From IMG/VR virus record IMGVR_UViG_3300020048_000040, positions 1 to 64,000 of that record: a stretch of 64,000 nt of DNA; one strand, 5' to 3'. The position numbers and the translations under genes are program-made. This DNA is from a virus. Positions 1-64,000 of this stretch are shown piece after piece. Numbering within the stretch: the stretch's first letter is position 1; every line of letters starts with the position of its first letter. The notes beneath the pieces were generated by a model that saw only the letters and a list, made by a program, of their open reading frames with translations, ran no database searches and was not told the origin of the DNA.

Positions 1-3000
1 CTAATACGTTTACCATAGTCAACCCCTATCGGGCGCAACTGGAAGCACAGATAGTTTTCGGTGATAATGTTCATGGAACAAGGGTTCCTACCAATGCCAA
101 AATCCGTTGCCCTAATATCATGGTTACTGATTATTCCCCTGCCAACGTTGCGGCGGCTTCTTTGACACTGACTGGTGCGATGACCCTGAACATTGGTACT
201 CTTACCATTGATACCGCTTTGTTTGATGAGATGCATCTTAACCTTACTCAGGCACAGACAGTAAGTATTTCCAATGCCGCTTTCTGTTTGCCTATGATTG
301 TATCAGAGTGCTACGCTTTCACAATGACAAATACGGTCTTAGGTCTTATTCCTGTTCGTAACTACTATTCAACATCTTGGCTTTCAAGGGAATCGACTTG
401 GGGTTCCCAAACCCAGACTTGGAGCTATATAAATGGAGCTTCAGTCACTGATACGGTATTTGCCGCAACATGTTTCAAGGCAAGGTCAGGAAATGATTCC
501 TCAGTAACCGCTCCTTCCGCTCTATTATCTTTATCCTACACCTCTGATGCAGTATTCAATAATCTGGTATTCTACCAGATTGCCTCGATGAGAAACTACA
601 CTACAGCAATCTATGGTTCTGCCAACGTCAACGAATGTACTTTTACAAACATTAAAGTTGTTGGAAGCCAAGGTGCCATAAACCTTACCACTTCCCTCGC
701 AAATACTGTTGACAACATAACTGTTCAGGAAAAGTTCTGGAATGAATGCACAGGCTTTGGAACCTCCGGTTGGCGTGTAGGAATGAATCCAGCTACAGGA
801 GCAAAACTGGTAGATGGAACAAAATATTATTTCAAGGTACGCTCCTATAGGGATTGGACAAACAAGGACTTGTATGTGGAAGGTCGTGTGGTTTCTGCTA
901 CACCCTATCTGAGTCCTGATAAATATCATCCACTACAATTTGGTGCTATCAATGCTGGTTCAGCTTCCAATATACTTACATGGATTAGGGCAGAACCACA
1001 GGCTGGATCAACTGCTTGGGAAATCTTCCGTTCTACTACCCAAGGCTTTACTGCAAGGGACGCAACTACGCGACAGGTAACGTCGGCTACCGAAGCGACA
1101 GTAACCTATACTGATAACGTTGCTGGATTGCTTGGCGCTCCTGTAAATGGAACTACATATTATTATGTATTACGGAAATGGAATTCCACAGGAACAGTAG
1201 CTTCCACAACCGGAACCAGTGGACAGTATACTTTAACCACTTCCAATAACTTCAATACAGCAAGGGGAACAGTAGTAAATTGTAATGCCCTTACTGGCTC
1301 CACAATAGTTACCGCCCTTACCTCCAACTTTGTAACAAGCGGTATAATTGCTGGAATGGCAGTATCAGGGGCAGGAATTCCTGCAAACACAAAAGTTGCT
1401 TCGGTCCAGAATTACCAACAGATAACTCTTGATACTGCTACCAATGCTGTTCTTGAAGGTGTAACCCTTACCTTTGGTCTGGCACCGGGAATGTTGATAG
1501 AAGGAACCAACGTAGCCCAGAATGCAAGGATAGTAACTATAGATTCCAATACACAGATTACCGTTGACAAGCCCCATACAGGCGCTGTTTCAACTACAAT
1601 CACTTTTGCTGATGTTACGGAATCCGCTGAACAGGAAGTCTATACTCACGGTGCCGCCACTACGGTTACGAATTATTGTTTCCAGTCAAATATCTTTACT
1701 AGTGGTACTTGGGTAAAGACAACGATGACCCCGACTGATGCCACTGGTAACAACGCTCCTATGGATACCATCTATGTAGCAGGAAACTTGCCAACAACGA
1801 CATCGGCAAGATTGGTATCCTCCGGTGCAAATGCCACTGCTGTTCAGACGGTAGGTGGACTGACTGCTGGACTGGACTACACTGCTTCCATCTATGTATA
1901 TGCCGCCGAGACTGCAACTGTTCCCGGTGTTGCTGGAGCATTGATTTTTGGAACAACCACAACCACGTTTACAGCTACCTCAAAATGGAAGAGGATTACT
2001 GCTACTTTTCAGGCAACAGGAACTTCCCATACTTTCACTATAAGGATTGATGTATCAGGCAGGACCATGTATGTTGCCCATGCCAATGTTCATCTGGGAA
2101 CCTCCGCTTTGATCCCGGTAACAACAACTACTGCCGCTGTTGCTTTGGGCGCACAGGAACTTTCCTCAATACTTCCTTTCACAAGGTTATACTCCGATGA
2201 GACAGCCAATCAGGGAATACAGATTGCCCTCAATGCCGCTCCTACTGGAACCCACTGGACAGATATTTTTATGGGGACTACTTCCAATTTCACTCCCAGC
2301 GATTTGAACAGGGTTGCCTCCACTTGGTCAGCAAGAAGTGTTCCTGTAATACTAAACAATGCAAACAATAATGAAATATCCGATGTAAGTGCTTTAGGTT
2401 ATTCAGGAAATGTAGTTTACTTGGCTTACTTGGTTGGTTCCTCAAACAACAGATTATTGAACTTCACTTGGGACTTTAATTACTCTACAGCGACTATGAT
2501 CAATGCTTCCAACCTTTCAAACAACAACCTGTTCCATAATTGGGTGGTAAAGCAACACAGGAATTATATAGCAACAAACTATCCTATTGTTTCTGTCAAT
2601 AACTGTTCAGGACTCACCTTTCAGAATCTGAAGTTGGACAAATATGATATTGCCTACAATAATCAATTCCTTGATTGTGTATTGAAAGGTGTAAGTGGAG
2701 GAAATGCCACTCCTGCGACAACGGCAACCACTTATGCCTTAGGTTCCACCACAGACTCAAATGCCATTGCCTATACTGGTGTCTATGATTATATCTTCAA
2801 TGAGTTCTATGATAGCATAAATACAGGAAGCCTTAAAATGGTATTCAATGCCTCCTCAAAGGCAATAAAGCCATATTCCATACTGGCAGGAAATCCTGTA
2901 TTCGGTAATTCAGGAAAGTTATATATCACCACTCCCAATGACAGTATTGAATATACGTGGCCTCATAAAATATATGGAGTTTCAGGATTCAGGAATATTT

Positions 3001-3791
3001 TACCCAAACTGAATGGTGTTGACCTTGGAAATGATGCTACCCTCCTGTTTGGACTGAAGGTTGAATATTCAATAAATACTGGATCAGGATACGGTGCATA
3101 TAAAAGGGCAACAGGAATAAACCTTGCTGGTGAGACTGTAAGTGCCTCTGCTGGATTTAACATAAAAATAAAGATAACTGCCAGAGAGTTCATGAAGGTA
3201 GGAAACCCTTCAACGCAGTTTGTGATTGGTGAAACCATCAATGGTGCCACTTCTGGAGCTACTGCCGTTGTTGATGAAGTTGAATGTTTTGGAACCACTG
3301 CCAACACCATAGCTATTTCTTCAAGGTCTGGAACATTCACCGCTACTGAAAATATCAGGGATTCAACCAATACAGTACGTGCCGCAAACGTGGCTACAAA
3401 CACCTTTGCCATTGGACCTTCCTTTACTTCCTACATAGATGCCTTGAGGATATTCACCACTGTTGACCAATCGGTAAACTATTCCTTGGCAACAAATGTA
3501 ACCTGTACTGTAACATGCAAGAATGCATCAACCGGAGCCTTGGTTCAGGATGCCCGAGTCTATATCCTCGCTGGTGCTGGTGGACTGGAAACGGAAGGAA
3601 CTATCATTTTCAATGGTCTTACTAATTCAAGTGGGATTATACAGTTCATCTATCCTTACATTTCCAGCCAGCCTATAACCGGAAAGGTACGAAGGGGAAG
3701 CTCATCACCCTTCTACAAGCCAAACCAGATTGTAGCAAGCATTGGAAGTTCAGGATTAGACCAGACTATATTCCTGATACCAGATGAATAG
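1..3791 (+). CDS. Large virion structural / tail fibre protein (5' truncated): beta-helix-like, FN3-like and carbohydrate-binding-like modules
   Basis: Frame is open from nt 3, upstream of the ATG at 120. T/S/N/G-rich. FN3-like ends (YYFKVRSY, YYYVLRKWN) and two GMxVxGxGIPxxT beta-barrel modules. Confidence 0.75.
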   Translation, partial: NTFTIVNPYRAQLEAQIVFGDNVHGTRVPTNAKIRCPNIMVTDYSPANVAAASLTLTGAMTLNIGTLTIDTALFDEMHLNLTQAQTVSISNAAFCLPMIVSECYAFTMTNTVLGLIPVRNYYSTSWLSRESTWGSQTQTWSYINGASVTDTVFAATCFKARSGNDSSVTAPSALLSLSYTSDAVFNNLVFYQIASMRNYTTAIYGSANVNECTFTNIKVVGSQGAINLTTSLANTVDNITVQEKFWNECTGFGTSGWRVGMNPATGAKLVDGTKYYFKVRSYRDWTNKDLYVEGRVVSATPYLSPDKYHPLQFGAINAGSASNILTWIRAEPQAGSTAWEIFRSTTQGFTARDATTRQVTSATEATVTYTDNVAGLLGAPVNGTTYYYVLRKWNSTGTVASTTGTSGQYTLTTSNNFNTARGTVVNCNALTGSTIVTALTSNFVTSGIIAGMAVSGAGIPANTKVASVQNYQQITLDTATNAVLEGVTLTFGLAPGMLIEGTNVAQNARIVTIDSNTQITVDKPHTGAVSTTITFADVTESAEQEVYTHGAATTVTNYCFQSNIFTSGTWVKTTMTPTDATGNNAPMDTIYVAGNLPTTTSARLVSSGANATAVQTVGGLTAGLDYTASIYVYAAETATVPGVAGALIFGTTTTTFTATSKWKRITATFQATGTSHTFTIRIDVSGRTMYVAHANVHLGTSALIPVTTTTAAVALGAQELSSILPFTRLYSDETANQGIQIALNAAPTGTHWTDIFMGTTSNFTPSDLNRVASTWSARSVPVILNNANNNEISDVSALGYSGNVVYLAYLVGSSNNRLLNFTWDFNYSTATMINASNLSNNNLFHNWVVKQHRNYIATNYPIVSVNNCSGLTFQNLKLDKYDIAYNNQFLDCVLKGVSGGNATPATTATTYALGSTTDSNAIAYTGVYDYIFNEFYDSINTGSLKMVFNASSKAIKPYSILAGNPVFGNSGKLYITTPNDSIEYTWPHKIYGVSGFRNILPKLNGVDLGNDATLLFGLKVEYSINTGSGYGAYKRATGINLAGETVSASAGFNIKIKITAREFMKVGNPSTQFVIGETINGATSGATAVVDEVECFGTTANTIAISSRSGTFTATENIRDSTNTVRAANVATNTFAIGPSFTSYIDALRIFTTVDQSVNYSLATNVTCTVTCKNASTGALVQDARVYILAGAGGLETEGTIIFNGLTNSSGIIQFIYPYISSQPITGKVRRGSSSPFYKPNQIVASIGSSGLDQTIFLIPDE

Positions 3792-3801
3792 GAGTTAGAC
3801 T

Positions 3802-3954
3802 ATGACTGAGAAAGAGATACATGATACTGAACACGACTCTATAAAAGACCCAAAACCGGATTGTGAATATTGTAAATATGAGTTGTACAGAAGGACTCAC
3901 AAATGTTTTGGTAATGGTAGTTCCACTGTGGCTATTCCCGTTAAGGAAGAATAA
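3802..3954 (+). CDS. Small 50-aa protein with possible metal-binding residues (HD..CEYC..HKC)
   Basis: AGGAG RBS at ~3790, ATG 3802, TAA abuts the next start. Absent from the ORF track. Confidence 0.6.
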   Translation: MTEKEIHDTEHDSIKDPKPDCEYCKYELYRRTHKCFGNGSSTVAIPVKEE

Positions 3955-4575
3955 TTGACTATATCTATAAATTGGCCTACCGGAGTTATAACAATACCTC
4001 AAAATCAACTCACCTTTATTTCAGGATCCAATTACACTTTGGATGTTGATGCTTTCAGATTGGCATTGAAAGATTTGGAAGATAGCGAGGAAGGAATGGT
4101 CTGGCCTATTACTCATAGGCACGCTACAGCTTCTACCCTTTCAGGCGTAACCTATGCAAGACAAGTAGAAATTCTTGCTCCATATACAATTACATTTCAG
4201 GATGTTGGAACACCTTATACTGTTAGTTGCTCTGGAGCGAATCATAATATTGCTGACGTTAAAAACGTAAATCAAGTATCCCTTATAGTAGGAAACTCTG
4301 CTGGTCTTATTTCTGTTACATCTGGTTCAGGAGTTACAGCACAGGATAAGATTGATATAGTAAATATGGTATGGAATGAATTGATAGCTAACCATACAGT
4401 TGACGGAAGTACTGGCGAGTCTTTATCTAATGCTGGAACTGGTGGTGTAAATTATACAGATATAGCTAATGCAGTTTGGGATAAACCAATATCTGGAAAT
4501 ACAACTGCTGGAACATTCGGAGAGTTCATTCAGAAGAAACTTTTAAGTGTAGCTAAATTTATTGGATTGAAATAA
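3955..4575 (+). CDS. Putative virion structural protein associated with the upstream fibre
   Basis: TTG start with AAGGAAG RBS. ISINW..VITIPQ..L N-terminus and IANAVWD motif resemble phage structural proteins. Confidence 0.6.
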   Translation: MTISINWPTGVITIPQNQLTFISGSNYTLDVDAFRLALKDLEDSEEGMVWPITHRHATASTLSGVTYARQVEILAPYTITFQDVGTPYTVSCSGANHNIADVKNVNQVSLIVGNSAGLISVTSGSGVTAQDKIDIVNMVWNELIANHTVDGSTGESLSNAGTGGVNYTDIANAVWDKPISGNTTAGTFGEFIQKKLLSVAKFIGLK

Positions 4576-5216: not shown

Positions 5217-5358
5217 TTCTACCTCTTATCAATTCTTCTATATCCTGAAACAATCTATCATTTTCTGCTATTTCTTTCAATAGAAAATCCTCTAACCATT
5301 CCGCATAATCGTGTTGTCCCGATATTGTAAACAACTCTCTTAATTTTTCTCTATTCAT
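5209..5358 (-). CDS. Hypothetical 49-aa protein
   Basis: ATGA overlap with the clpP-like stop. Reads MNREKLRELF...RGRNV and overlaps the next start. Confidence 0.6.
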   Translation of the reverse strand: MNREKLRELFTISGQHDYAEWLEDFLLKEIAENDRLFQDIEELIRGRNV

Positions 5359-6008
5359 AATATTTCATCCACCAACCCATATTCAATTGATTTACTGGCA
5401 TCAAACCAAATATCTTTCTTGAGCATACTTTCAATTTGTTCATCTGTCAGTTTAGTATATTCTTTATACATATTCTTTATTACATTCATAAACATTTCAT
5501 TGTTTTCCATTTCATCTTTAAGCTCTTCATACTTACCCCACATACCTGTCTGTAATTGATGAATAAGCATAAATGAATGTTTTGTTATAAACCGTTTCTT
5601 ACCTACCATAGAAATAAATGTAGCAGCCGATGCAGCACTACCCTCTATAATTGTATAGACTGGACATTCACTATTTATAATAGTATCTACAGCAGAAAGA
5701 GCTGAAAATAATTCACCACCAAAAGAATTTATATGTAAATAGATTGGAATTTTTCTATAATCCATATCCTTATCATATTTAATAAATTCCTTTTTCAAGC
5801 TTGTGTTTAATTCCTTAATATTCTTATTAAGAGAAAGTATTGTTTCTGTTTCTACATCATCATAAAAATAAATATGATTATCAGTTGGCATAGAAGCAAA
5901 TGGATTCATAAATGAATTATCATTTCCTCCTGAACTTATCATAATAGGTATGGAAGTAAGTTGTTGCTCTTCATCGTCGCACATTCTATAACCTCTTCGT
6001 TTAGCCAT
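5355..6008 (-). CDS. clpP: ClpP-like serine protease (S14)
   Basis: IYLHINSFGG, GSAASAATFI (catalytic Ser), FMLIHQ (His), KDIWFDA (Asp), YGLVDEIL C-terminus. Confidence 0.9.
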   Translation of the reverse strand: MAKRRGYRMCDDEEQQLTSIPIMISSGGNDNSFMNPFASMPTDNHIYFYDDVETETILSLNKNIKELNTSLKKEFIKYDKDMDYRKIPIYLHINSFGGELFSALSAVDTIINSECPVYTIIEGSAASAATFISMVGKKRFITKHSFMLIHQLQTGMWGKYEELKDEMENNEMFMNVIKNMYKEYTKLTDEQIESMLKKDIWFDASKSIEYGLVDEIL

Positions 6009-7688: not shown

Positions 7689-9845
7689 TTATTTATTCTC
7701 CATTTTTTCAATTTTTTCGTTTAATTCCTGTACTGCCTTGACAAGAATAGCTGTAGTATTATTTATATCAAAACTGTTTTTTGCTTTTCCAGTAAAAATC
7801 TCAGGACTATCATCAGCTATAATACCAACTTTTCTTTCTTTATCTTTATCAGAAATATAATTAAAATTTACTATATTAAGACATTTCAAATTTTCCAAAG
7901 CGCTTATAGTATAAGGGCAAATATTTTCTTTCAGGCATCTTAAAGAGCATACCCTGAATGCTGCTGCTGTATGATTTCCAGAAGAATTAATAGCAGGAAT
8001 TGTAAGTAAATCTCTATTCATACTTGCTGTTCCAGCATTAACGGTTGTAGCATTTACTGTTAAAATAGTTCCTGTAGTAGCTCCAAAATTAGTTATATTA
8101 CCATTAACTCCGTATATTCTAGTACCAAAAATTATTCCTGTAGAGCAAATATTCCCTGATCCTGTATAAATACATCCAGCATTTAATTCATCTGTTATAT
8201 TTATACAAGTTCCTGTATAACAACATATATTTGCTAAAGTTCCTTTTATACAGGAACCATCAGACATAGTAATATTTTCTGTAGCTATACTTCCAGCAAA
8301 CTCAGAATTTGTTGCATCTATAACAAATGGACCGTTAATATATATTCCACATACTCCAACTATTAAACAACATGCATATAAAGCTGTAGTGGCACAAATT
8401 GTGGGGGCACAAATTTGTGTGCTTGCTTCTAAACAAGCAGAAGTAATTAAACATTGAGAAACAATATTATTACAGAAATTAGCTACACCACAATTTGTCA
8501 TACCAGTTTTATTTAAGAAATTACAAGAACAAAGATTAGTTGCGTTTAAACAATTACCAGTTGAGTTACAGAAATTAGTTAATGTAGTAACATTTAAATT
8601 AGCTAAAGTAGAAATACCTACAACATTTAAAGTTCCATTTATACAGCTATTTCCAGTAAAACATCCAATTGCTCCATAAACAACACCAGATGATCTTACA
8701 TCAGTAGAACAAATATTAGTTCCGCAAATAGTTGGGGAACACAATATAGTTGCATAGGCAAAATTAAAGCAAGAATCTGTAGCTATAACTTTGGCAGAAC
8801 ATATATCTGCTGAATTACAGATATATGTAGAACAAACTGTAGCAGTACAAACTCTTGTAGTGGCTCTTACGCATCCAGTTTCAACATTAATAGTTGAGAA
8901 TAAACAATTTGTACCTATGCATCCAGAGTTGTTTACATTAGCAAAACACCCTAAAGTAGCTTTTATGCAAACACCTGCATCTACACAACCTAAAGTAGCT
9001 AAACCAGAAGTATATGCTGTAGTTGCACAGACATTTCCATTTACACACATAGAATTATCAAACAAATATTTACAAGTTCCTGTTCCATTCAATGAGAAAC
9101 TAAGACAAGTTCCATTATAACCCATAGTAGCTTTATATGAACATGTTTTTCCTATTTCTATTTTTTCATTAAAAGCGGAAATTTTACTATCAGAACAAAT
9201 ATTTAATTCACAAGCACAAGCAGCCGAACCAGGAACTATATTTCCATCAATATCTATTTTTATAGACATACCTGAAGGAAATGTAGGTTCCAATAATATA
9301 GAACAAGCATTTATAGTGCACCCATAAGTAGTAGCTATTTGATTTGTTAATTTATATCCTGTATCTGCACAATAACACCAAGCAGCGCAACTACCCTTTT
9401 TTATACAAGCAGTATAACAACACCCATTATAAGTAATATTTACTTTATCATTTCCAAATTTAGTATCAAGACCAAGTTTAATTTCAATCTGTCTAGCAGC
9501 CAAGAAAGTATTTGGTTGATTTACTACAACATTCCCATTATGATAAGCTACGAAAGGCCTTACTATTTTACAGGAACCGCAAGTATCTACTAAAGTTTCA
9601 GAAGAATATTCAGCTATAATTCCATTACAACTATTAACATTATTTTTTATCAGTTTTTCAGTTGCTGTATAATTATCTCTAATTGCTTGATAATAATTCT
9701 CAGAAACCCTTTGAAAGGTTTTTAAATTAAAATCATCACATAAACTAAAACTTTCTATACTGTTTATAGTAGAACAAGAGAAAGAGGGTATAACCTCTCC
9801 AGTAGTTTGATCTAATATTTGTCCTTCGCCGTATATTTTTACCAT
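7689..9845 (-). CDS. Cysteine-rich tail fibre with C-terminal intramolecular chaperone (peptidase S74-like)
   Basis: Short beta-repeat shaft. C-terminal SLR.LKENI...FNY...VGIIADD...LVKAVQELNEKIE. About 60 Cys in 718 aa (hand count). Confidence 0.8.
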   Translation of the reverse strand: MVKIYGEGQILDQTTGEVIPSFSCSTINSIESFSLCDDFNLKTFQRVSENYYQAIRDNYTATEKLIKNNVNSCNGIIAEYSSETLVDTCGSCKIVRPFVAYHNGNVVVNQPNTFLAARQIEIKLGLDTKFGNDKVNITYNGCCYTACIKKGSCAAWCYCADTGYKLTNQIATTYGCTINACSILLEPTFPSGMSIKIDIDGNIVPGSAACACELNICSDSKISAFNEKIEIGKTCSYKATMGYNGTCLSFSLNGTGTCKYLFDNSMCVNGNVCATTAYTSGLATLGCVDAGVCIKATLGCFANVNNSGCIGTNCLFSTINVETGCVRATTRVCTATVCSTYICNSADICSAKVIATDSCFNFAYATILCSPTICGTNICSTDVRSSGVVYGAIGCFTGNSCINGTLNVVGISTLANLNVTTLTNFCNSTGNCLNATNLCSCNFLNKTGMTNCGVANFCNNIVSQCLITSACLEASTQICAPTICATTALYACCLIVGVCGIYINGPFVIDATNSEFAGSIATENITMSDGSCIKGTLANICCYTGTCINITDELNAGCIYTGSGNICSTGIIFGTRIYGVNGNITNFGATTGTILTVNATTVNAGTASMNRDLLTIPAINSSGNHTAAAFRVCSLRCLKENICPYTISALENLKCLNIVNFNYISDKDKERKVGIIADDSPEIFTGKAKNSFDINNTTAILVKAVQELNEKIEKMENK

Positions 9846-9857
9846 TTATAATTCTCC

Positions 9858-10319
9858 TTAGAAAGCTTCATCATCTTTATTTGTTAAATCTTTAAAGTCA
9901 ATATCTTTAGTTATAAAAGCTTTATTATATCTTCTTATAAACTCAGCTTGTTCTGGAAATAAAGATTTGATTCTTTCATATTTCTTCAATTTATCATTTC
10001 CTACCAATAACCTTGTAAAACTATCGATATCATCTATAGCTTTTTCAGCATATTCTTTATTAATGAAATAATTGGTATTCCATCCTAATATATCGCTTCG
10101 TTTACCATAACTTTTCTGGTGTATTTGGCCAGGATAATCAAAATCCAATACTTTTACTGTAGGTTCTGGATCATTTTTAAAGTTATTATACTTGAAGGAT
10201 ATATTCTGAAGGCTTTCATATAGTTTCCTTCTCTTTCTACGTATAATTTTCCTTAAAACCCTTACAGGTATTTGAGGATTACCTATTGCGGCTGTTGTCA
10301 TTAATTCATTTAGTTTCAT
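9858..10319 (-). CDS. Distant T4 gp2-like (DNA end protector-like) protein
   Basis: F.YNNFKNDPEP...GWNTNY...IRRY parallels 31938..32552. MKLNE N-terminus. Confidence 0.45.
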   Translation of the reverse strand: MKLNELMTTAAIGNPQIPVRVLRKIIRRKRRKLYESLQNISFKYNNFKNDPEPTVKVLDFDYPGQIHQKSYGKRSDILGWNTNYFINKEYAEKAIDDIDSFTRLLVGNDKLKKYERIKSLFPEQAEFIRRYNKAFITKDIDFKDLTNKDDEAF

Positions 10320-10333
10320 AGTATTATCTTTGC

Positions 10334-10828
10334 TTAAAAGAATATGAGTTTACCCGAAAGCAACATTATTATAATAAACTGGACAGCATTAGCTATTAGG
10401 GAGAATATTGTATTTCTTTGCGAGTTCTTCAAGGTAGTTACTAAATCCTTCGTTTGATTTGCTAAAGTTTCCAATTGATTCTGTAATTCCTGATAGGAGG
10501 TTGAGAGAGCTTCGTAATTCGGCATTAATTTCTCTTGTTCTTTTTTCAAGTCCTGAAATGTTTGTTCCAAGGCTTCGTAATTCTTGACCAACGTTTGATA
10601 CCTGTTCTTCCATTCCTCCAATTCGTTCGCTGATAACTGCGATTGTTTTTCCAAATTCTCCAATTTGTTCTGCAATTCGTTTATTTGTTTCTCTAACACT
10701 ATTTTCTGTTGCTTGAATTCTATCGAGTAATTGTTTAGAGTTATCCATTCCTCTTGAGTTAAAGTATATATTGGTTGCGGTAAAAACAAGACCAATAACA
10801 ATAACGATAATAACAATTTTTTTATCAT
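10334..10828 (-). CDS. Coiled-coil protein with N-terminal signal/TM and C-terminal TM (spanin-like)
   Basis: MIKKLLLSLLLLVLFLP signal, long heptad region, hydrophobic C-terminus, no Cys. Confidence 0.6.
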   Translation of the reverse strand: MIKKLLLSLLLLVLFLPQPIYTLTQEEWITLNNYSIEFKQQKIVLEKQINELQNKLENLEKQSQLSANELEEWKNRYQTLVKNYEALEQTFQDLKKEQEKLMPNYEALSTSYQELQNQLETLANQTKDLVTTLKNSQRNTIFSLIANAVQFIIIMLLSGKLIFF

Positions 10829-10832
10829 TCAT
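10389..10832 (-). CDS. i-spanin-like membrane-anchored coiled-coil protein
   Basis: N-terminal TM (IVIIVIVIGLVF) then coiled coil. Overlaps the previous gene in another frame. Confidence 0.6.
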   Translation of the reverse strand: MNDKKIVIIVIVIGLVFTATNIYFNSRGMDNSKQLLDRIQATENSVRETNKRIAEQIGEFGKTIAVISERIGGMEEQVSNVGQELRSLGTNISGLEKRTREINAELRSSLNLLSGITESIGNFSKSNEGFSNYLEELAKKYNILPNS

Positions 10833-10857
10833 TTTTCTTCCTTTTCTATATATATGT

Positions 10858-10879
10858 AAAGTTAATTTATATTAACTTT
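10858..10879. promoter_or_regulatory. Back-to-back copies of a putative late promoter motif serving divergent genes
   Basis: AAAGTTAAT-TTAT-ATTAACTTT inverted repeat between the 10832 (-) and 10893 (+) starts. Confidence 0.6.
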
Positions 10880-10892
10880 TCAGGAGAAAAAA

Positions 10893-11468
10893 ATGTTCAA
10901 ACAAATAGTAAAAATGTACATAAAGGAAGAAAGTGAAAGGGTAGCTAAGGTTAAGGAAGTAATTACTCCTGCCCAAATATTTAATTTAAAAGGTAAATTA
11001 CGACACGATAATAATGCAGTCAGTTTTTTAAATAAATTAGATAGTATTTATAAAAAATATGCTGCTGGAACAGAAACGGAATCAAGAAATAAAGAGCTTA
11101 CAAACGCTCTTTCTTCTTTGGAAAATAGTAATCAGAAAACTTTTGATAAAATAACTGCTAATCTACATGGCGGTCTTAAAGTTACTTTAAAAAGTTATAA
11201 ACCTTTATCAGATGAAGAAAAAAAGAAAGTAGATAAAAAAGCCAGAAATAGAGAACCAGAAAAAGGTGCCTTAAAAGTAGACTTAAAAGATAGAGAAAAA
11301 GAAAAAAAAGCAGAAAGCAAGTTTAAAGAAATGGTAGGCAAAGAAATTCCTAACGATGGTGATGACGAGAATTTAACTTTTGATAAATACAAAGCAAAAG
11401 CCCCCACTAAAACAAGAGAAATTTTTCAAAAAATAGCTTTAGAAAGAGCAAGAAAAAATAAAGAATGA
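10893..11468 (+). CDS. Lys/Glu-rich protein, putative internal head protein
   Basis: MFKQIVKMYIKEE N-terminus resembles that of the 11768 gene. AGGAG RBS. Confidence 0.5.
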   Translation: MFKQIVKMYIKEESERVAKVKEVITPAQIFNLKGKLRHDNNAVSFLNKLDSIYKKYAAGTETESRNKELTNALSSLENSNQKTFDKITANLHGGLKVTLKSYKPLSDEEKKKVDKKARNREPEKGALKVDLKDREKEKKAESKFKEMVGKEIPNDGDDENLTFDKYKAKAPTKTREIFQKIALERARKNKE

Positions 11469-11502: not shown

Positions 11503-11715
11503 TTTAGGACCGTGATAACTTGTAGTTTGTTTTATCGGTGTTTCACCATTATTTACTTTACTCCATCCATATCCCTTGAAATGAGTTGCTGCTCCACCAA
11601 AAACTGGTCTATACATCTTTTCGCCACATTCACAAATGACTTCTGGATCTTCTCTCATAGGGTGGTCCATTTCTTTTTCTTTATTACATTTCTTACATAC
11701 ATATGTGTATAACAT
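11485..11715 (-). CDS. FmdB-family zinc-ribbon protein
   Basis: MLYTYVCKKC...HPM...CECG..M.R......FKGYGW. Likely start is ATG 11715 with AAGGAG RBS, not 11961. Confidence 0.85.
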   Translation of the reverse strand: MLYTYVCKKCNKEKEMDHPMREDPEVICECGEKMYRPVFGGAATHFKGYGWSKVNNGETPIKQTTSYHGPKINKEG

Positions 11716-11767
11716 AAAATTCTCCTTAGTAAAGTTAATATTATATAAGGAAAGAGGGAGCAAACTG

Positions 11768-12910
11768 ATGAATTTCAAACAAAATGTAAAATTATATTTA
11801 AATGAAACAAAAGAAAAAGTAGAAATAACAGATATTAATGGAAATGTTTTAACAAGAGGAGCTGGACAATCAGAAACCAATAGAGCTGAAAATGTTATAG
11901 GTAAATTAAAAAAAAGTATTAGAGGTAATACAGATAAGAATGCAGAAGAAAAAGAAGGCATTGAAAATAATTTTAGATCTATACCTACTAACCCAGCATC
12001 TATAGTAAATACTTGGTCTGAAGACGTAAAGTTAAAACATTTTACTACTCATCCAAAAACAATATTTTCTGAAACTTCTCAAGTTTTTGAGACCATTCTT
12101 TCTCGACTTACTAGAAATAGCGAGAAAAAAGAAGTAACAGATTTATTCAACAAAGCAAAAGACAATAAAGATGAAAATGCTTTAAAAACTTTGATAATAA
12201 TAGCTAAAAAAATTGTTGAAGCTGATAAAAAAGATACTCTTATATTACAAAAACAATTTGGTGGTACTAAAGAAGAACAAGAAGAAGCAAATAATTTAGC
12301 AAGTAAAATAGCAAAACAAGGTGAAGAAAATTTTGAAACCATGATAAATGGAGTAATAGCAAGAAGTAAAATAAATGATAAAATAGACAATCCAGATGCC
12401 CGTAGCGTTAGAGAGATTTTGAAAGATAAGGAATTGAATGCAGATATTTCTCTTGGAGATATTATACATAAAGTTAACGGAAAATATGTAGTAAAAAATG
12501 AAAAAATTGTTGAAGCGTTATTAAAAGAACTTAGCAAATCACGTGGCCACACAATATCACGTAAAGAATTTAACGCTGACTTAGAGGAATATAACAAAGT
12601 AGCCGATAAAAATTGGGTAAAACAGAAAAAAGTTATGTCTGCTGATGGAGAAGAAAATACTGTAGAATTAAGAGCAGAGGATTTAGCCAAGGATATGGAA
12701 GGAAAGTATATAGAAAAATATAAAGATATTCAATCCAAACGAGGTAGAAAAATAGGTAAAGATTTGGAAGTTTTTAAAAAAGCTTTAAACAAAGGGAATC
12801 AAAGTAGCATAGCAGCTAAATTAGAAGCAATTGGCAAAAGAGCTGAAGATAAAGATGAAAATGATATTAAACGCACTAAATTACGAAAAGCTTTAAAGGG
12901 TGAACTATGA
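11768..12910 (+). CDS. Highly charged helical protein, putative internal head protein
   Basis: Likely start is ATG 11768 (GGGAG RBS, late motif at 11731). N-terminus MNFKQNVKLYLNE. Confidence 0.55.
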   Translation: MNFKQNVKLYLNETKEKVEITDINGNVLTRGAGQSETNRAENVIGKLKKSIRGNTDKNAEEKEGIENNFRSIPTNPASIVNTWSEDVKLKHFTTHPKTIFSETSQVFETILSRLTRNSEKKEVTDLFNKAKDNKDENALKTLIIIAKKIVEADKKDTLILQKQFGGTKEEQEEANNLASKIAKQGEENFETMINGVIARSKINDKIDNPDARSVREILKDKELNADISLGDIIHKVNGKYVVKNEKIVEALLKELSKSRGHTISRKEFNADLEEYNKVADKNWVKQKKVMSADGEENTVELRAEDLAKDMEGKYIEKYKDIQSKRGRKIGKDLEVFKKALNKGNQSSIAAKLEAIGKRAEDKDENDIKRTKLRKALKGEL

Positions 12911-13401: not shown

Positions 13402-14338
13402 AGAGTTATTAACTAATTGGTTATATTCAGGTTCTTTAGGCACTGTCTTTAGGGAATTTGATGATAACTTCGTTCGTTTTAATAATTATTTTATTTCCAA
13501 TCTAATCAAATATGAAGAGGAATTCGTTTATTCTGTTCTTATGTCTCCTGAAGGCGATAAAGAAAAACGTATATTTCTTCTTGCCAAATTTTCAACAATA
13601 GAGAATAAGAAAAGGTTCAAAGAAGCTTTTAAAAAAAACATAATAGATATAACTGATCTATATTGTTTTCTTTTTTATGTAAAGAAGATAAGAGGATTTG
13701 GTAGAACTATAAGAGATGTAGTTAAAGATTGGTTTCATTATACATTAACAAATAAAATAGAGGAATATGTTTCCAATAATAGTAATGGATACAAATGGAG
13801 TTTCAAGGATATACTGAAGGAATTTCATATAAAACCAAAGAATAAAAAAGAGGAAGAACTTTTTAATAAATATATGTATGAAGTATTTTTGGAAAGAGAG
13901 GAAACTTTATTTGAGTTATTAGAATATTATGAGAACCTAAAAGGAATTTACTTTCCTAACTCAAGAATTTTATTACATTATGAAAATTTAATCACTAAAA
14001 AGGTTAGAATATTGAAAACAAATAAGAAGATTTTAAATATAGTAAACTTTGATTTGGTTGGTAATGTGCAGAATAGTAAAATAAAGGCTTCTGAGTTTGT
14101 AAAACATATGGTTGCTGGTTTTGATAGATACTGTCCAAAGAAAGATGATTATGATGTTATTATTTTATGGAGTGATAAAAGAAACATGCATATCAATACA
14201 GACAAGAAAGTGATAAAAATAAACTTGAATGTTTCTAAGATGACAAATAAAAAAGAAGAAGATAATACATATAAGATACTAGGTTTTAATAATAAAACAT
14301 TGGAATTATTGGCAAATATATTGGGAGATAAAATATGA
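13391..14338 (+). CDS. Miniaturised Ro60/TROVE-like RNA-binding protein with degenerate vWA domain
   Basis: RGFGRTIRDVVKDWF and GYKWSFKDILKEFHIKP resemble Ro60 GRALRKA..DWY and GWSHKDLLRLSHLKP. YDVIILWSD and ILGFNNKTLELLANI resemble the vWA end. Frame is open back to CTG 13391 with AGGAG RBS. Confidence 0.75.
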   Translation: MLHKELLTNWLYSGSLGTVFREFDDNFVRFNNYFISNLIKYEEEFVYSVLMSPEGDKEKRIFLLAKFSTIENKKRFKEAFKKNIIDITDLYCFLFYVKKIRGFGRTIRDVVKDWFHYTLTNKIEEYVSNNSNGYKWSFKDILKEFHIKPKNKKEEELFNKYMYEVFLEREETLFELLEYYENLKGIYFPNSRILLHYENLITKKVRILKTNKKILNIVNFDLVGNVQNSKIKASEFVKHMVAGFDRYCPKKDDYDVIILWSDKRNMHINTDKKVIKINLNVSKMTNKKEEDNTYKILGFNNKTLELLANILGDKI

Positions 14339-14967
14339 AAATAATACAGGATCTATTGACTATAAATGAATTTTCCAGACCAAATAAAAAAATAAAGGAA
14401 GTTCGCTATATCGTATTACATTGGGTTGCTAATCCAAAATCTACTGTTGTAAACAATAGGGATTGGTTTGAAAAAAGGAAAGACGGTAAAGCTGGATATG
14501 GATCTGCTCATTATATCATTGATGGAGATATGGTATTACAATGTATACCTGATGAGGAACTTGCTTATCATGTGGGTTCTTCAAATGGATATAGTGATGC
14601 AACAAAAAAAGAATTTGGAGATGAAAGTCCAAATTATTATATGATAGGTATAGAACTTTGTCATCCTGATTGGACTGGAGAGTTTACAAAGGAAACTTTG
14701 GAAAGCGCAAAGAAATTATGTTATCTATTAATGATGGAATATGGTTTATCAGTAGAAAAGATTACTACACATTTCAATGTAGTTGGTTGGAAAAACTGTC
14801 CTAAATACTTTGTAGATAAACCAGAAGAATTCAAGAAGTTTAAAGAAAGTATAATGGAAATACCTTTCTTACAAAAAGACGATGATATATTGGTTGGTGT
14901 AAAAAATGGTAAATACAAAATATTGAAAGATGGTAAAACATTTTATAAGGAGCTTGATGATGTTTAA
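14335..14967 (+). CDS. N-acetylmuramoyl-L-alanine amidase (Amidase_2), endolysin
   Basis: IVLHW, SAHYII, E.AYHVG, IGIELC, H...WKNCP zinc-binding motifs. Confidence 0.92.
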   Translation: MKIIQDLLTINEFSRPNKKIKEVRYIVLHWVANPKSTVVNNRDWFEKRKDGKAGYGSAHYIIDGDMVLQCIPDEELAYHVGSSNGYSDATKKEFGDESPNYYMIGIELCHPDWTGEFTKETLESAKKLCYLLMMEYGLSVEKITTHFNVVGWKNCPKYFVDKPEEFKKFKESIMEIPFLQKDDDILVGVKNGKYKILKDGKTFYKELDDV

Positions 14968-15361
14968 AAAAATACTGACATTTATATGGATGCTTCCTCA
15001 GAATATTCTGGGAATACTCATATTGTTTCTTTTAAAAGGTGGAAAAGTAGATAGTTATAAAGATTGTGATATATATCGAGTGAATGTATCTGGTTTTTCT
15101 GGTGGTAGCTTTGGGAGATTTATAATTCTTGAGGATGCTTATTTTAAAAGAGAATATATGTTTGTTTTAGAATTAACAAAAAGACACGAATTTGGTCATT
15201 ACCTACAAGGTAAAATACTTGGTCCTTTATATTTAATCATAATTGGAATACCTTCAATGATAAACAATCTAAGAGCAAGAATAGATATAAAAGTAAGGGA
15301 TACCTATTATACTAGGTATCCAGAAAATTGGGCTGATAAACTTGGAGAAGTGAAGAGATAA
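14957..15361 (+). CDS. Membrane protein with HExGH zincin-like motif
   Basis: W.LPQNILG, HEFGHYLQ..ILGPLYL..IGIPS, YPENWADKLG. Start at ATG 14957/14960 after AAGGAG. Confidence 0.7.
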   Translation: MMFKKILTFIWMLPQNILGILILFLLKGGKVDSYKDCDIYRVNVSGFSGGSFGRFIILEDAYFKREYMFVLELTKRHEFGHYLQGKILGPLYLIIIGIPSMINNLRARIDIKVRDTYYTRYPENWADKLGEVKR

Positions 15362-21779: not shown

Positions 21780-23444
21780 TTATTGGTTTATATTATCTTT
21801 ACCTATTGTAAAAACCTTCATTCCGCAATCGTATATCCTATTAAATCCATTATTTATCATATTTTCTTTTTCTGTTAAGTTTCCATCAAAATTTTCCAAT
21901 AAATCTTTAAGTTTATGTTTTTGATATTTCATTCTATTATATCGTTCTTCATTTTTAACATAATAGTAATTAGGTTTAGATGTCTCTATTTTATTAAATC
22001 CGAGTGTTCTATATATTTCTCCAGTAAAATATCTTATATCACAATAACTAATTATATTAGTTAAATTTATATTCTTGAATAATTTAGAAGCTCCGCCTAT
22101 TATTTTTGTATTCAATTTATTAGCAAACCTAAGTAATTCCCATTCATAGTTTTTATTAAATCTTGATTTACCAAAACTCATTAAACTTACTAATTCATTG
22201 TTATAATAAAGTCCTAGACAAATTGATGAAGGAGTATAACCTTGTATATGGTTATTGTTTAGAAATTCTCGTTCCTCTACTGAAGAGACTTCTTTTATTT
22301 CTGTTTTTCTAGCATAAATAATTTGATCAAATAAATGTAAGCGAGATTTAACAATAGATTTTACTATTTCTTGTTTGAAATTCCATTCATCTTCAAATAT
22401 ATGTATAATATCTATACCTAATTTTTTGAAATAATTTGTTTTATCTAGATGATAGTTATTATCTTTATATAAATCACTATGCCAGTAAATACCATCAAAT
22501 TCTATACCTAAACTATGTGAAGGGATATAAATATCAATTTCGAATATATCTCTATAATTTTCTACTACTTCAATACCAAGAGATTTAACAAACTCTACAA
22601 CTTCTTTTTCTTTATTGGAAAAACCAAACATTAACGGGAAACAGTTTTTACATCTTGGAATATGTCCATTATTTATACCATCTTCAAAAACTAAACCGCA
22701 TTCATTACACTTCCATTTATATTTTTCTTCGTCGCCTTTATATTCCTCTAAATTAAATAAAGGGACAACTAAATTATTGTTTCTGTTTAATAAATTACCA
22801 AACGACCTTTTGCGCCTAGACATTGTTATTTTATTTTTAATATCATCACTTTCAGAAGCGTTTAAATATCCATATTTTTTTAAATTTGTTTGTCTTGCCT
22901 TATGCAGAATTTCTTTATTTTGCAATACGTGCTCTACCCCAAAATTTAAAAGATTACTTATTTTTGATTTACCTCTTATCTCCTCATTACACATAGGGCT
23001 TGGTCCACCATATTTATCTATATTGGTTTGTCTCGCTTTAATTTTTATTTCATTATTTTGTAACGGAGTATTTGTCCCATACCTTCTTAAATTTGTTTGT
23101 CTCATTTTTTCAGAAATATCTTTATTACCAGAAGGGGTTATTGAACCATATTTTTTTAAATTTGTTTGCTTAGTTTTTTCTTTTGTTTCTTTTGCTTGAG
23201 AAGAGTTTTCAACACCATATTTTTTTAAATTTGTTTGTTTCCTTTGACAACTACCACAAAATATCTCGCCTGTCAGTGGTAAAATTATATCGCTTGATTT
23301 TTTTCTACTTTCTTTGTTACACCTATCACATATAAAAATTATAGAATCATGCTTTTTTATATCTTTTATAAAAACACCATCTTTAACATAGATATCAAAA
23401 TTTTTCTCTTCTTTATTTTCTTTTATTATTTTAATTATATTCAT
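21780..23444 (-). CDS. Free-standing Hef-like homing endonuclease (KQTNLKKYG repeats, Zn fingers, PD-(D/E)xK nuclease, GNAT-like C-terminus)
   Basis: About 6 xQTNLxxYG repeats, CxxC pairs, EIDIYIP..LGIEFDGIYWH, HIFEDEW, IYARK, GGASKLF. Confidence 0.85.
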   Translation of the reverse strand: MNIIKIIKENKEEKNFDIYVKDGVFIKDIKKHDSIIFICDRCNKESRKKSSDIILPLTGEIFCGSCQRKQTNLKKYGVENSSQAKETKEKTKQTNLKKYGSITPSGNKDISEKMRQTNLRRYGTNTPLQNNEIKIKARQTNIDKYGGPSPMCNEEIRGKSKISNLLNFGVEHVLQNKEILHKARQTNLKKYGYLNASESDDIKNKITMSRRKRSFGNLLNRNNNLVVPLFNLEEYKGDEEKYKWKCNECGLVFEDGINNGHIPRCKNCFPLMFGFSNKEKEVVEFVKSLGIEVVENYRDIFEIDIYIPSHSLGIEFDGIYWHSDLYKDNNYHLDKTNYFKKLGIDIIHIFEDEWNFKQEIVKSIVKSRLHLFDQIIYARKTEIKEVSSVEEREFLNNNHIQGYTPSSICLGLYYNNELVSLMSFGKSRFNKNYEWELLRFANKLNTKIIGGASKLFKNINLTNIISYCDIRYFTGEIYRTLGFNKIETSKPNYYYVKNEERYNRMKYQKHKLKDLLENFDGNLTEKENMINNGFNRIYDCGMKVFTIGKDNINQ

Positions 23445-23499
23445 AAAAAACACTCTTCCTTTTAAAGAAGAGTGTACCTTTTTTATTTACTTTTGTCAA
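23445..23499 (-). promoter_or_regulatory. Sigma70 promoter with overlapping RBS-sequestering terminator hairpin
   Basis: TTGACA-17-TACACT. ACACTCTTC/GAAGAGTGT stem, then TTTTT and ATG. Confidence 0.8.
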
Positions 23500-63458: not shown

Positions 63459-63469
63459 AGGAGAATAAA

Positions 63470-63859
63470 ATGACGAAAGAGAATCTTGAGAAAGCTAATG
63501 CGTTGAAGGAAAGGATAGCTGTTTATACCAGTTTCCTTGATTACTTCAAGCCTGTAGATATGACTATTTCTGCGGCAATTCCCGGTATGGACCCAACAAT
63601 GTATCCACCACCAGCAATGCCAACAACGTTTCCAAGCAAGATTTCATTGACTGCCAGTTATATACCCAGTGTCATAACACCTGAAGGAACAACTGAAGGA
63701 AAATGGGAAGTAGTATCAGCAAGTGGAATTACTGATAAGGAAATATTGGATTTGATAAATGAGTTGGCATCTTTGGAATTGAGTAGTATAGGTGGGTCTA
63801 TTGTAGATTCCGTATTGGAAAAGATAAGTAATATGCAAACAGAATTTGAAGCATTGTAA
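63470..63859 (+). CDS. Small acidic protein, possibly a fibre assembly chaperone
   Basis: 129 aa, GAGGAG RBS, sits between fibre genes. Confidence 0.6.
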   Translation: MTKENLEKANALKERIAVYTSFLDYFKPVDMTISAAIPGMDPTMYPPPAMPTTFPSKISLTASYIPSVITPEGTTEGKWEVVSASGITDKEILDLINELASLELSSIGGSIVDSVLEKISNMQTEFEAL

Positions 63860-63871
63860 AAAGAGGAAAAA

Positions 63872-64000
63872 ATGGCTGTATTAGGTTCTACTACTGTCTC
63901 GGGAAATCTATCTGTAAGTGGTATCGTTTCGAGTAATTCAACTACTGTGGCTGGAAATCTTACAGTAGGAGAAACAACAACCCTATCTGGTGCTAGTAGT
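63872..64000 (+). CDS. Start of next fibre-like protein (3' truncated)
   Basis: GAGG RBS, MAVLGSTTVSGNLSVSG...GNLTVG beta-repeat, open to the window edge. Confidence 0.7.
   Translation, partial: MAVLGSTTVSGNLSVSGIVSSNSTTVAGNLTVGETTTLSGASS

What the first reader, a model, noticed from the sequence alone, without database searches (positions are those of the whole stretch)
10334..10845. Fully overlapped, lipobox-free spanin-like pair started from one RBS
Seen: AAGGAAGAAAA-ATGA-ATG gives two starts 4 nt apart in different frames. Over ~440 shared nt both frames encode an N-terminal hydrophobic segment plus a long coiled coil, and one adds a C-terminal TM. Neither has any Cys. Established: embedded Rz/Rz1 spanins use a lipoprotein o-spanin with a lipobox Cys. 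Inference: a different two-component membrane-fusion or lysis device, possibly for an unusual diderm envelope.
Basis: partly seen in the sequence, partly recalled or inferred. Interest (0 to 1): 0.7.

Follow-up and report, generated by a model that had tools for sequence, protein, structure and literature searches.

The report
Two-frame membrane coiled-coil phage gene pair
One 440-base stretch of a large uncultured water phage is open in two reading frames that start four bases apart, and its codon choices look tuned to keep both, so it probably makes two different membrane-anchored rod proteins, though the second protein and any role in bursting the host remain unproven.

Summary
On the minus strand, ATG 10832 (A, 147 aa, 10389-10832) and ATG 10828 (B, 164 aa, 10334-10828, +1 frame) follow one AAGGAAG. 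They share 440 nt, and neither protein has Cys.

A is a real gene. It has five relatives at 31-48% identity, an N-terminal membrane helix and a helical rod.

B's open frame is far beyond chance. The exact probability is 3.8e-11 given A's protein and the phage's codon usage. With A's own codon counts kept, 9 of 30,000 permutations stay open. A is the extreme outlier of 127 genes, and only in the +1 frame.

Missing evidence:
- There is no expression evidence.

The spanin reading is weak. There is no lipobox, the pair heads a tail-fibre operon 3.5 kb from the endolysin, and the endolysin's relatives are mostly from phages of Gram-positive hosts.

Earlier notes of this scan describe similar pairs on other phage DNA. 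I did not check them.

Verdict: probable true dual coding (about 0.55), with an envelope-related role inferred.

The parts
10837..10843 (-). Single Shine-Dalgarno-like AAGGAAG. It lies 4 nt before A's ATG and 8 nt before B's ATG.
   Evidence: sequence. In the upstream sequences printed, my reading of the spacing between the GGAG-like core and the start in other genes of the window is about 3-9 nt, so both starts would fit.
10389..10832 (-). Gene A, 147 aa: short basic N-terminus, membrane helix at residues 6-24, then a helical rod (helices 28-87, 93-125, 127-140). This is the conserved, probably older frame.
   Evidence: its base composition by codon position matches the phage's genes; relatives at 31-48% identity, E down to 5.8e-36. 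AF2; hydropathy.
10334..10828 (-). ORF B, 164 aa, in the +1 frame of A: signal-peptide-like N-terminus (residues 4-17, then Pro-Gln-Pro), three predicted helices (25-61, 67-100, 105-157) and a C-terminal hydrophobic segment (about 141-159). This is the candidate overprinted gene.
   Evidence: open frame beyond chance. AF2 on the single sequence, pLDDT 76.8; hydropathy. No relatives found.
10389..10828 (-). The 440-nt stretch open in both frames.
10334..10388 (-). B-only tail beyond A's stop, encoding most of B's C-terminal hydrophobic segment. It ends 14 nt before the next gene's ATG (10319), which has no SD-like 4-mer.
   Evidence: No terminator-like site and no Rfam match over the pair.
10817..10823 (-). 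A run of seven A (codons 4-5 of A). It is a possible slippage site that could also move ribosomes or RNA polymerase from A's frame into B's.
   Evidence: sequence only. The slippage is inference and was not tested.

Best explanation
This is a true dual-coding locus in a large tailed phage with about 30% GC.

Gene A encodes a type II (N-in) membrane-anchored helical rod protein. It belongs to a very small family known only from uncultured samples.

Its +1 frame carries ORF B, of nearly the same extent, which has been overprinted on A. A's synonymous positions have been pushed away from the phage's normal codon usage. This keeps B free of stops and makes it a soluble-looking helical protein with a hydrophobic segment at each end.

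Both are translated from one Shine-Dalgarno sequence by alternative initiation at ATGs 4 nt apart. Slippage on the seven-A run is a possible second route into B's frame.

Both products would insert into the cytoplasmic membrane with their rods outside. A would be held by its N-terminus and B by its C-terminus.

Shown: both frames are open, the statistics, the codon distortion, and A's relatives.

Inferred: that B is translated, the topology, and a late role at the cell envelope (lysis, membrane disruption, or protection of the envelope or receptor).
For: - Both frames are open across 440 nt.
- The exact probability of no +1 stop, given A's protein and the phage's codon usage, is 3.8e-11. None of 20,000 resamples is stop-free.
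- With A's own codon counts kept, 9 of 30,000 permutations are stop-free.
- Among the 127 genes of the 125.8-kb record that were tested, A is the extreme outlier for missing +1 stops: z -6.45, observed/expected 0.06. The next gene has z -4.14 and ratio 0.76. A's +2 frame is not depleted (z -1.23), so general TA avoidance does not explain it.
- A avoids NTA codons. ATA is 1 of 17 Ile codons against 0.60 in the phage. TTA is 3 of 13 Leu against 0.53. CTC is 5 of 13 against 0.01.
- A's synonymous usage is the second most deviant of the 127 genes.
- Given an open frame, B is still more coiled-coil-like than null translations under the phage's usage: a/d heptad score P 0.0034, LIVMF fraction lower than all 5,000 nulls, Gly+Pro P 0.04.
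- A's start is fixed by its relatives. M-N-D-K is invariant in 6 of 6 sequences that are otherwise 31-48% identical. Conserved N-D would keep the second ATG if Asn is AAT, which is inference.
- P0022 equals P0006 for 109 residues and then continues with a 22-residue tail containing a hydrophobic run and a QRN motif like B's C-terminus (Smith-Waterman P 0.02-0.05). This is consistent with a one-base difference that reads into the +1 frame of a relative. It is a weak hint.
- B's stop lies 14 nt before the next ATG, which lacks an SD.
Against: - There is no DNA from any relative, so conservation of B's frame is untested.
- B has no detectable relatives as a protein. B's Atlas recognition value is 1853, below the 2300 that 91 in 100 known-family proteins reach.
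- Under the most conservative null (A's own codon counts, frame open), B's coiled-coil features are only marginal: P 0.07 for both the heptad score and the 3.5-residue periodicity, 0.10 for Gly+Pro, 0.03 for hydrophobic fraction, from 459 samples.
- The finding was picked from a scan of very many genes, so a P of 3e-4 would not be enough on its own.
- There is weak internal repetition at 42, 63 and 189 nt, so the codons are not fully independent.
- B's N-terminal hydrophobic run is a by-product of A's helix.
- A 69-nt gap after A alone would not be unusual: 18.5% of the 108 same-strand gaps are that long or longer.
- There is no evidence that either protein is made.
Confidence: 0.55

Rival explanations
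1. Only A is a gene. B's open frame is a selected extreme. A coiled-coil gene with odd codon usage, possibly acquired from elsewhere, happens to lack +1 stops. It was noticed because the scan looked at millions of genes.
For: - With A's own codon counts kept, the chance is 3e-4, which is not rare across a very large scan.
- The conservative conditional tests are marginal.
- B has no relatives and a low Atlas recognition value.
- The gene set behind the protein collection holds A but not B.
- B's N-terminal hydrophobic run comes for free.
Against: - The codon-usage shift is itself unexplained under this view, and it points exactly in the direction that removes +1 stops: NTA avoidance, CTC at 5 of 13 against 0.01.
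- It is frame-specific: +1 z -6.45 against +2 z -1.23.
- P is 3.8e-11 under the phage's usage.
- An ATG sits at the first possible codon of the open frame, within reach of the SD.
Confidence: 0.3
2. The pair is a working equivalent of spanins, the proteins that break the outer membrane at lysis. A would act as the inner-membrane rod (i-spanin-like). B would replace the lipoprotein partner, or act like a one-piece spanin that has a signal sequence and a C-terminal anchor.
For: - A has i-spanin layout: N-terminal membrane helix plus a helical outer domain of about 120 aa.
- A gives a weak PHROG hit to an Rz-like spanin family (phrog_739, E 0.0024, no stretch passing on its own).
- The partner lies in the +1 frame, as Rz1 does in Rz (passage read in PMC6139136).
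- That paper reports 91 phage genomes in which no spanin gene could be identified, of which 34 had no CDS that could encode a lipoprotein (passage).
- Only one lipobox-like ORF was found in this 125-kb record.
- Unchecked notes of this scan describe similar pairs beside lysis genes in other phages.
Against: - There is no Cys, so no lipobox in either frame.
- The pair is not in a lysis cassette. It heads the tail-fibre operon, and the endolysin is 3.5 kb away on the other strand.
- The endolysin's relatives are mostly from phages of Bacillus and Listeria (98 of 118 records). A host without an outer membrane would need no spanin.
- The spanin PHROG hit is no better than the hits to holin, tape-measure and other coiled-coil families.
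- The record is only about 54% complete, so ordinary spanins could lie in the missing part.
Confidence: 0.2
3. B is not started on its own. It is reached from A's start by slippage on the seven-A run at codons 4-5. This would give a second isoform with A's first five residues joined to B's sequence.
For: A7 at 10817-10823 lies just after both starts. The whole +1 frame downstream is open. P0006 and P0022 differ in a way that fits a one-base difference in an A run (inference).
Against: B has its own ATG at a usable distance from the SD. A-runs are common in DNA of 30% GC. Nothing was tested.
Confidence: 0.08
4. The pair, or A alone, is an envelope protein tied to the tail-fibre genes that follow it. 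One example would be a membrane protein that masks the receptor or blocks superinfection, rather than a lysis protein.
For: It is the first gene of the operon that continues with a 153-aa protein, the S74-type tail fibre (7689-9845), a Gly-rich protein and the head protease. From recall, phage T5 places its receptor-blocking lipoprotein next to its receptor-binding protein. This was not checked here.
Against: It rests on gene position only. No family match supports it.
Confidence: 0.1

Closest known systems
Embedded and overlapped two-component spanin genes (lambda Rz/Rz1; survey Kongari et al. 2018, PMC6139136, passages read)
   Same: Two envelope proteins are encoded on shared DNA, with the second in the +1 frame of a type II membrane protein that has a helical outer domain.
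   Different: - Rz1 is a short Pro-rich lipoprotein embedded well inside Rz. B is as long as A, helical, Cys-free, starts 4 nt after A and ends beyond it.
- This pair is not in a lysis cassette.
- The host's envelope type is unknown.
Unimolecular spanin (phage T1 gp11; as described in PMC6139136)
   Same: B has the same outline: an N-terminal signal-like segment, an outer domain and a C-terminal membrane segment.
   Different: gp11 has a lipoprotein signal and a mainly beta-sheet outer domain. B has no lipobox and is predicted to be all-helical.
Overprinted same-strand overlapping genes of viruses, and the single-genome permutation tests used to find them (PMC8227390 and PMC6188560; search listing and start of abstracts only)
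   Same: A long ORF lies in another frame of a conserved gene. It was detected by codon-permutation and synonymous-resampling tests. The older frame keeps the more normal codon usage.
   Different: The overlap covers 99% of A (440 of its 444 nt, stop included). Both products are membrane-anchored rods. The two starts share one ribosome-binding site.
DUF948 (PF06103) membrane-anchored coiled-coil proteins
   Same: A, and its relative P0006, have an N-terminal helix plus a coiled coil and give weak matches (25.9 and 21.3 bits).
   Different: Both scores are below the curated cut-off of 37.2 bits, so A is not a member by Pfam's rule.

Membership tests
Two-component spanin (Rz/Rz1 type) | i-spanin: N-terminal membrane helix (N-in, C-out) with a helical periplasmic domain | tested here: met
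   A has a hydrophobic segment at residues 6-24 and helices at 28-87, 93-125 and 127-140. The topology itself is inferred.
Two-component spanin (Rz/Rz1 type) | o-spanin: outer-membrane lipoprotein with a lipobox Cys | tested here: not met
   Neither A nor B has any Cys. The third frame is full of stops.
Two-component spanin (Rz/Rz1 type) | Genes lie in or next to the lysis cassette (holin, endolysin) | tested here: not met
   The Amidase_2 endolysin is at 14335-14967 on the plus strand. The pair heads a minus-strand tail-fibre operon.
Two-component spanin (Rz/Rz1 type) | Host has an outer membrane | tested here: inconclusive
   Host unknown. Endolysin relatives: 91 Bacillus and 7 Listeria phage records of 118. 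The DNA polymerase gives only 25-28% matches across many hosts. No tRNA genes in the window.
Two-component spanin (Rz/Rz1 type) | Required for outer-membrane disruption at lysis (complements Rz/Rz1 mutants) | not testable with these tools
   This needs an experiment.
Unimolecular spanin (T1 gp11 type) | Lipoprotein signal at the N-terminus and a membrane helix at the C-terminus | tested here: not met
   B's C-terminal hydrophobic segment is present (141-159), but there is no lipobox.
Overprinted overlapping gene | Alternative-frame ORF longer than chance allows, given the known gene | tested here: met
Overprinted overlapping gene | The frame is kept open, and under purifying selection, in diverged relatives | not testable with these tools
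Scans of the viral, metagenome and genome collections and of GenBank phages found none.
Overprinted overlapping gene | Evidence that the second frame is translated | not testable with these tools
   No RNA run is listed, and there are no proteomic data.
DUF948 (PF06103) | Score at or above Pfam's gathering cut-off (37.2 bits) | tested here: not met
   A scores 25.9 bits. P0006 scores 21.3 bits.
Dual-start holin/antiholin motif (lambda S105/S107 type; recalled) | Two starts a few bases apart in the same frame, giving two forms of one protein | tested here: not met
   The two ATGs are in different frames.

The most novel reading that the evidence does not exclude
This locus belongs to an undescribed and recurrent class of phage genes in which one stretch of DNA encodes two full-length membrane-anchored coiled-coil proteins. 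The two are read in different frames from a single ribosome-binding site. Together they do envelope work at the end of infection, breaking or fusing membranes, without the lipoprotein that all known spanins use. Here the class would appear in a large aquatic phage, outside a lysis cassette.
Probability: 0.25. Interest if true: 0.8.

Novelty: new variant of a known kind. Interest (0 to 1): 0.55.

Why it matters
If B is real, almost all of a 147-codon gene is read in two frames to give two structured membrane proteins. That is far more overlap than the textbook phage cases, and annotation pipelines drop it: only A is in the protein collections.

If pairs like this also do the last step of lysis, they would help answer an open question raised in the spanin survey (PMC6139136, passage). 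That question is how phages with no lipoprotein gene get through the outer layers of the host.

The locus also makes a clean test case for overprinting. The older frame is identifiable, and the cost to its codon usage can be measured.

Tried and rejected
**Relatives' DNA**
- The search for related loci found no relative of A with A alone or the A-family alignment.
- It found none with the 153-aa neighbour, the tail fibre, the RNR or the endolysin.
- The head protease brought four loci at 46% identity. One contig is named as a giant-virus MAG. The locus whose ORFs I listed (L003) shows no synteny, and none of the four holds an A- or B-like sequence.
- The small zinc-ribbon neighbour brought three loci at 37-47%, also with no A- or B-like sequence.
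- blastn and tblastn against GenBank phages gave no match for the region, A or B.

**Sequencing runs**
- Four DNA holders were listed and no RNA holder.
- Laid contigs: X1-X3 show no differences from the window where they cover it. X4 holds 151-base pieces of 83-96% likeness in the flanking genes. Nothing credible was laid over 10334-10832, only short partial matches with loose ends. No variation data were obtained for the pair.

**Binding of A and B**
- Complex prediction gave no answer: score 0.01, and the controls were not run. I take no conclusion from it.

**Fold searches**
- Both models against BFVD gave no match with E <= 0.001.
- The protein Atlas gave no hit at 0.9 or above for A or B.

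**Upstream motif**
- A 36-nt look-alike of the upstream region lies at 117336-117373 of the record.
- The 13-nt core is not enriched in the window: 10 matches against 9.9 expected. I dropped it.

**Other checks**
- No terminator-like site and no Rfam match above threshold.
- A canonical spanin was rejected for lack of a lipobox.
- The same-frame dual-start motif was rejected because the frames differ.

**Literature**
- Four searches found no paper describing a near-full-length two-frame pair of coiled-coil membrane proteins, or a spanin without a lipobox.
- Supplementary tables of PMC6139136 were not seen and might list odd cases.

Full report
**What is there**

The window is the first 64 kb of a 125,824-base IMG/VR virus record, rated about 54% complete. 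It is about 30% GC over most of its length. It carries genes of a large tailed phage:
- baseplate wedge proteins and a tape-measure-like protein;
- a tail fibre with an S74 chaperone domain and a ClpP-type head protease;
- ribonucleotide reductase, dUTPase and an Amidase_2 endolysin;
- DNA polymerase and helicases in the second half of the record.

On the minus strand, searches show AAAAGGAAGAAAA-ATG-A-ATG.
- The first ATG (10832) opens A, 147 codons ending at 10389.
- The second ATG (10828) opens B, 164 codons in the +1 frame ending at 10334.
- The shared stretch is 440 nt.
- Neither protein has Cys.

**Is A a gene?**

Yes.
- Its base composition by codon position matches the phage's other genes: G is 0.30 at position 1 and 0.03 at position 3. 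B's composition looks like a +1 frame.
- A HMMER search of 1.84 billion representative proteins found P0002 (149 aa, 50% by that search, E 5.8e-36), P0003 (163 aa, 44%, 1.2e-23) and P0006 (110 aa, 38%, 9.5e-06). The remaining 17 hits are generic coiled-coil matches to longer or unrelated proteins.
- A profile search added P0023 (163 aa).
- The six-sequence alignment shows 31-48% identity to A, with M-N-D-K invariant at the start.
- A has a hydrophobic helix at residues 6-24 and predicted helices at 28-87, 93-125 and 127-140 (AF2 with a four-row alignment, mean pLDDT 62).
- Family matches are weak and generic: DUF948 at 25.9 bits against a cut-off of 37.2, and PHROG hits to holin, Rz-like spanin, tape measure and others at E 1e-5 to 1e-2.

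**Is B's open frame chance?**

No, by every model tried.
- Redrawing A's synonymous codons from the phage's usage gives a mean of 17.6 stops in the +1 frame, and 0 of 20,000 draws is stop-free.
- The exact probability from a chain calculation is 3.8e-11.
- Shuffling whole codons of A gives P 1e-4.
- Permuting synonymous codons within A, which keeps A's own unusual usage, gives 9 stop-free of 30,000. Doing the same for B against A's frame gives 1 of 30,000.
- I made a crude gene call of 129 genes across the record and tested 127 of them, dropping two that contained N. A is the extreme outlier for missing +1 stops: z -6.45, observed/expected 0.06. The next is a 44%-GC gene at z -4.14 and ratio 0.76. 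A's +2 frame is normal, at z -1.23. General avoidance of TA is therefore not the cause.
- The mechanism is visible in the codon table. ATA is 1 of 17 Ile codons against 0.60 in the phage. TTA is 3 of 13 Leu against 0.53. GTA is 1 of 8 Val against 0.43. The very rare CTC is 5 of 13 against 0.01. AGC, AAC, TAC and CGA are also over-used.
- B in turn over-uses G-ending codons (TTG, TCG, CAG), as expected if A's first positions constrain it.

**Does B look like a protein beyond being open?**

Partly.
- I drew 5,000 recodings of A that keep the +1 frame open, under the phage's usage. The real B has a better a/d heptad pattern (P 0.0034), stronger 3.5-residue periodicity (P 0.011) and fewer Gly+Pro (P 0.04). 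Its hydrophobic content is far lower and more protein-like: 0.23 against a null mean of 0.42, lower than all 5,000.
- When A's own codon counts are kept, these signals fade: P 0.07 for both the heptad score and the 3.5-residue periodicity, 0.10 for Gly+Pro and 0.03 for hydrophobic fraction, from 459 samples. Most of the evidence therefore lies in the codon-usage shift, not in the order of the codons.
- B's N-terminal hydrophobic run is a by-product of A's membrane helix (null translations).
- AF2 on B alone gives three helices, mean pLDDT 76.8 and pTM 0.58. I could not fold null sequences for comparison.
- B's Atlas recognition value is 1853, below the 2300 that most known-family proteins reach.
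- B has no protein relatives in the word-indexed search or in GenBank phages.

**Conservation**

This is the decisive test, and I could not run it.
- All relatives of A are from Logan assemblies only.
- Scans of IMG/VR, JGI metagenomes, GTDB genomes and GenBank phages found no relative.
- Contigs of four public runs gave no variant over the pair.

Two indirect hints remain.
- The invariant M-N-D-K (6 of 6) would preserve the A-ATG-A second start if Asn is AAT.
- P0022 is identical to P0006 for 109 residues and then carries a 22-residue tail with a hydrophobic run and a QRN motif like B's C-terminus (similarity P 0.02-0.05). This fits a one-base difference that reads into the +1 frame beyond the A-type stop in a distant relative.

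Both hints are weak.

**Context and function**

The pair is the first gene of a minus-strand operon. The operon continues with a 153-aa protein of no known family, the tail fibre, a Gly-rich protein and the head protease. A 60-nt divergent region with a 12-nt inverted repeat lies upstream.

The endolysin is 3.5 kb away on the other strand. It is followed by a 143-aa membrane protein with an HExxH motif.

A scan of all frames of the 125-kb record found one lipobox-like ORF (113619-114281, 220 aa), which does not look like an o-spanin.

The host is unknown. Of the 118 phage records that match the endolysin, 91 are from Bacillus phages and 7 from Listeria phages. The polymerase is uninformative.

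The spanin idea therefore rests on layout alone: A resembles an i-spanin in outline, and B lies in the +1 frame as Rz1 does (PMC6139136, passages read). The defining lipoprotein is absent and the cassette position is wrong.

I keep an envelope role as the most likely, because both products would be membrane-anchored rods made late in infection. I rate the spanin-equivalent reading at about 0.2.

**Earlier notes of this scan**

Word searches returned eleven follow-up notes on other phage genomes. They describe two membrane-anchored coiled-coil proteins in two frames, from starts 2-5 bases apart behind one ribosome-binding site. All eleven report that relatives or related loci keep the layout. 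About seven place the pair in or beside lysis genes.

I did not check them. None shares sequence with this locus. They raise my prior that this is a recurrent kind, but they are not evidence for this locus.

Four literature searches found no description of such pairs.

**Verdict**

A is a real, conserved gene. B is a strong single-genome candidate for an overprinted gene (about 0.55). The function is inferred, not shown. The spanin label is not earned.

Noticed in passing
window 14930-15361 (+): A 143-aa ORF overlaps the end of the Amidase_2 endolysin by 38 nt. It has two hydrophobic segments and an HExxH motif (HEFGH). It could be a holin-like or membrane metalloprotease partner of the endolysin. 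It has no Pfam match.
   Followed up: partly
window 1-4000 and 62000-64000: GC is 41-45% against about 30% elsewhere. The gene at 120-3791 has the most deviant codon usage of the 127 genes tested and long open alternative frames. It may be foreign or recently acquired DNA.
   Followed up: no
window 10830-10865 and record 117336-117373: A 36-nt upstream element (TTTACATATATA..AAGGAA..ATG) recurs at 87% identity in front of another gene. Its 13-nt core is not enriched in the window.
   Followed up: partly
window 10855-10882: A 12-nt inverted repeat with a 4-nt loop lies in the 60-nt divergent intergenic region between the pair and the gene at 10893. It could be an operator.
   Followed up: no
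window 5355-6008 (-); loci L003-L006: The only IMG/VR contigs found with the ClpP-type head protease (46% identity) include one named as a giant-virus MAG, and the one I examined (L003) has eukaryote-virus-like gene content.
   Followed up: partly
proteins P0006 / P0022 (relatives of A): The two cluster members are identical for 109 residues. One then stops, and the other continues for 22 residues with a hydrophobic tail, as if they differ by one base in an A run.
   Followed up: partly
window 12079-12690 (-) inside 11636-12910 (+), and others: Long antisense ORFs of 100-200 aa lie inside several genes. My recollection is that this is common opposite purine-rich coding strands in AT-rich DNA. 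I did not test them.
   Followed up: no
window 21780-23453 (-) and record 84382-85893 (+): Two large paralogous HNH homing-endonuclease genes (phrog_3339, E about 1e-122 each).
   Followed up: no
window 9392-10022 and 11548-11695: A lake-water run from a second study (X4) holds 151-base contigs that are 83-96% like the flanking genes. A related phage therefore exists elsewhere. Nothing credible was laid over the pair itself.
   Followed up: partly
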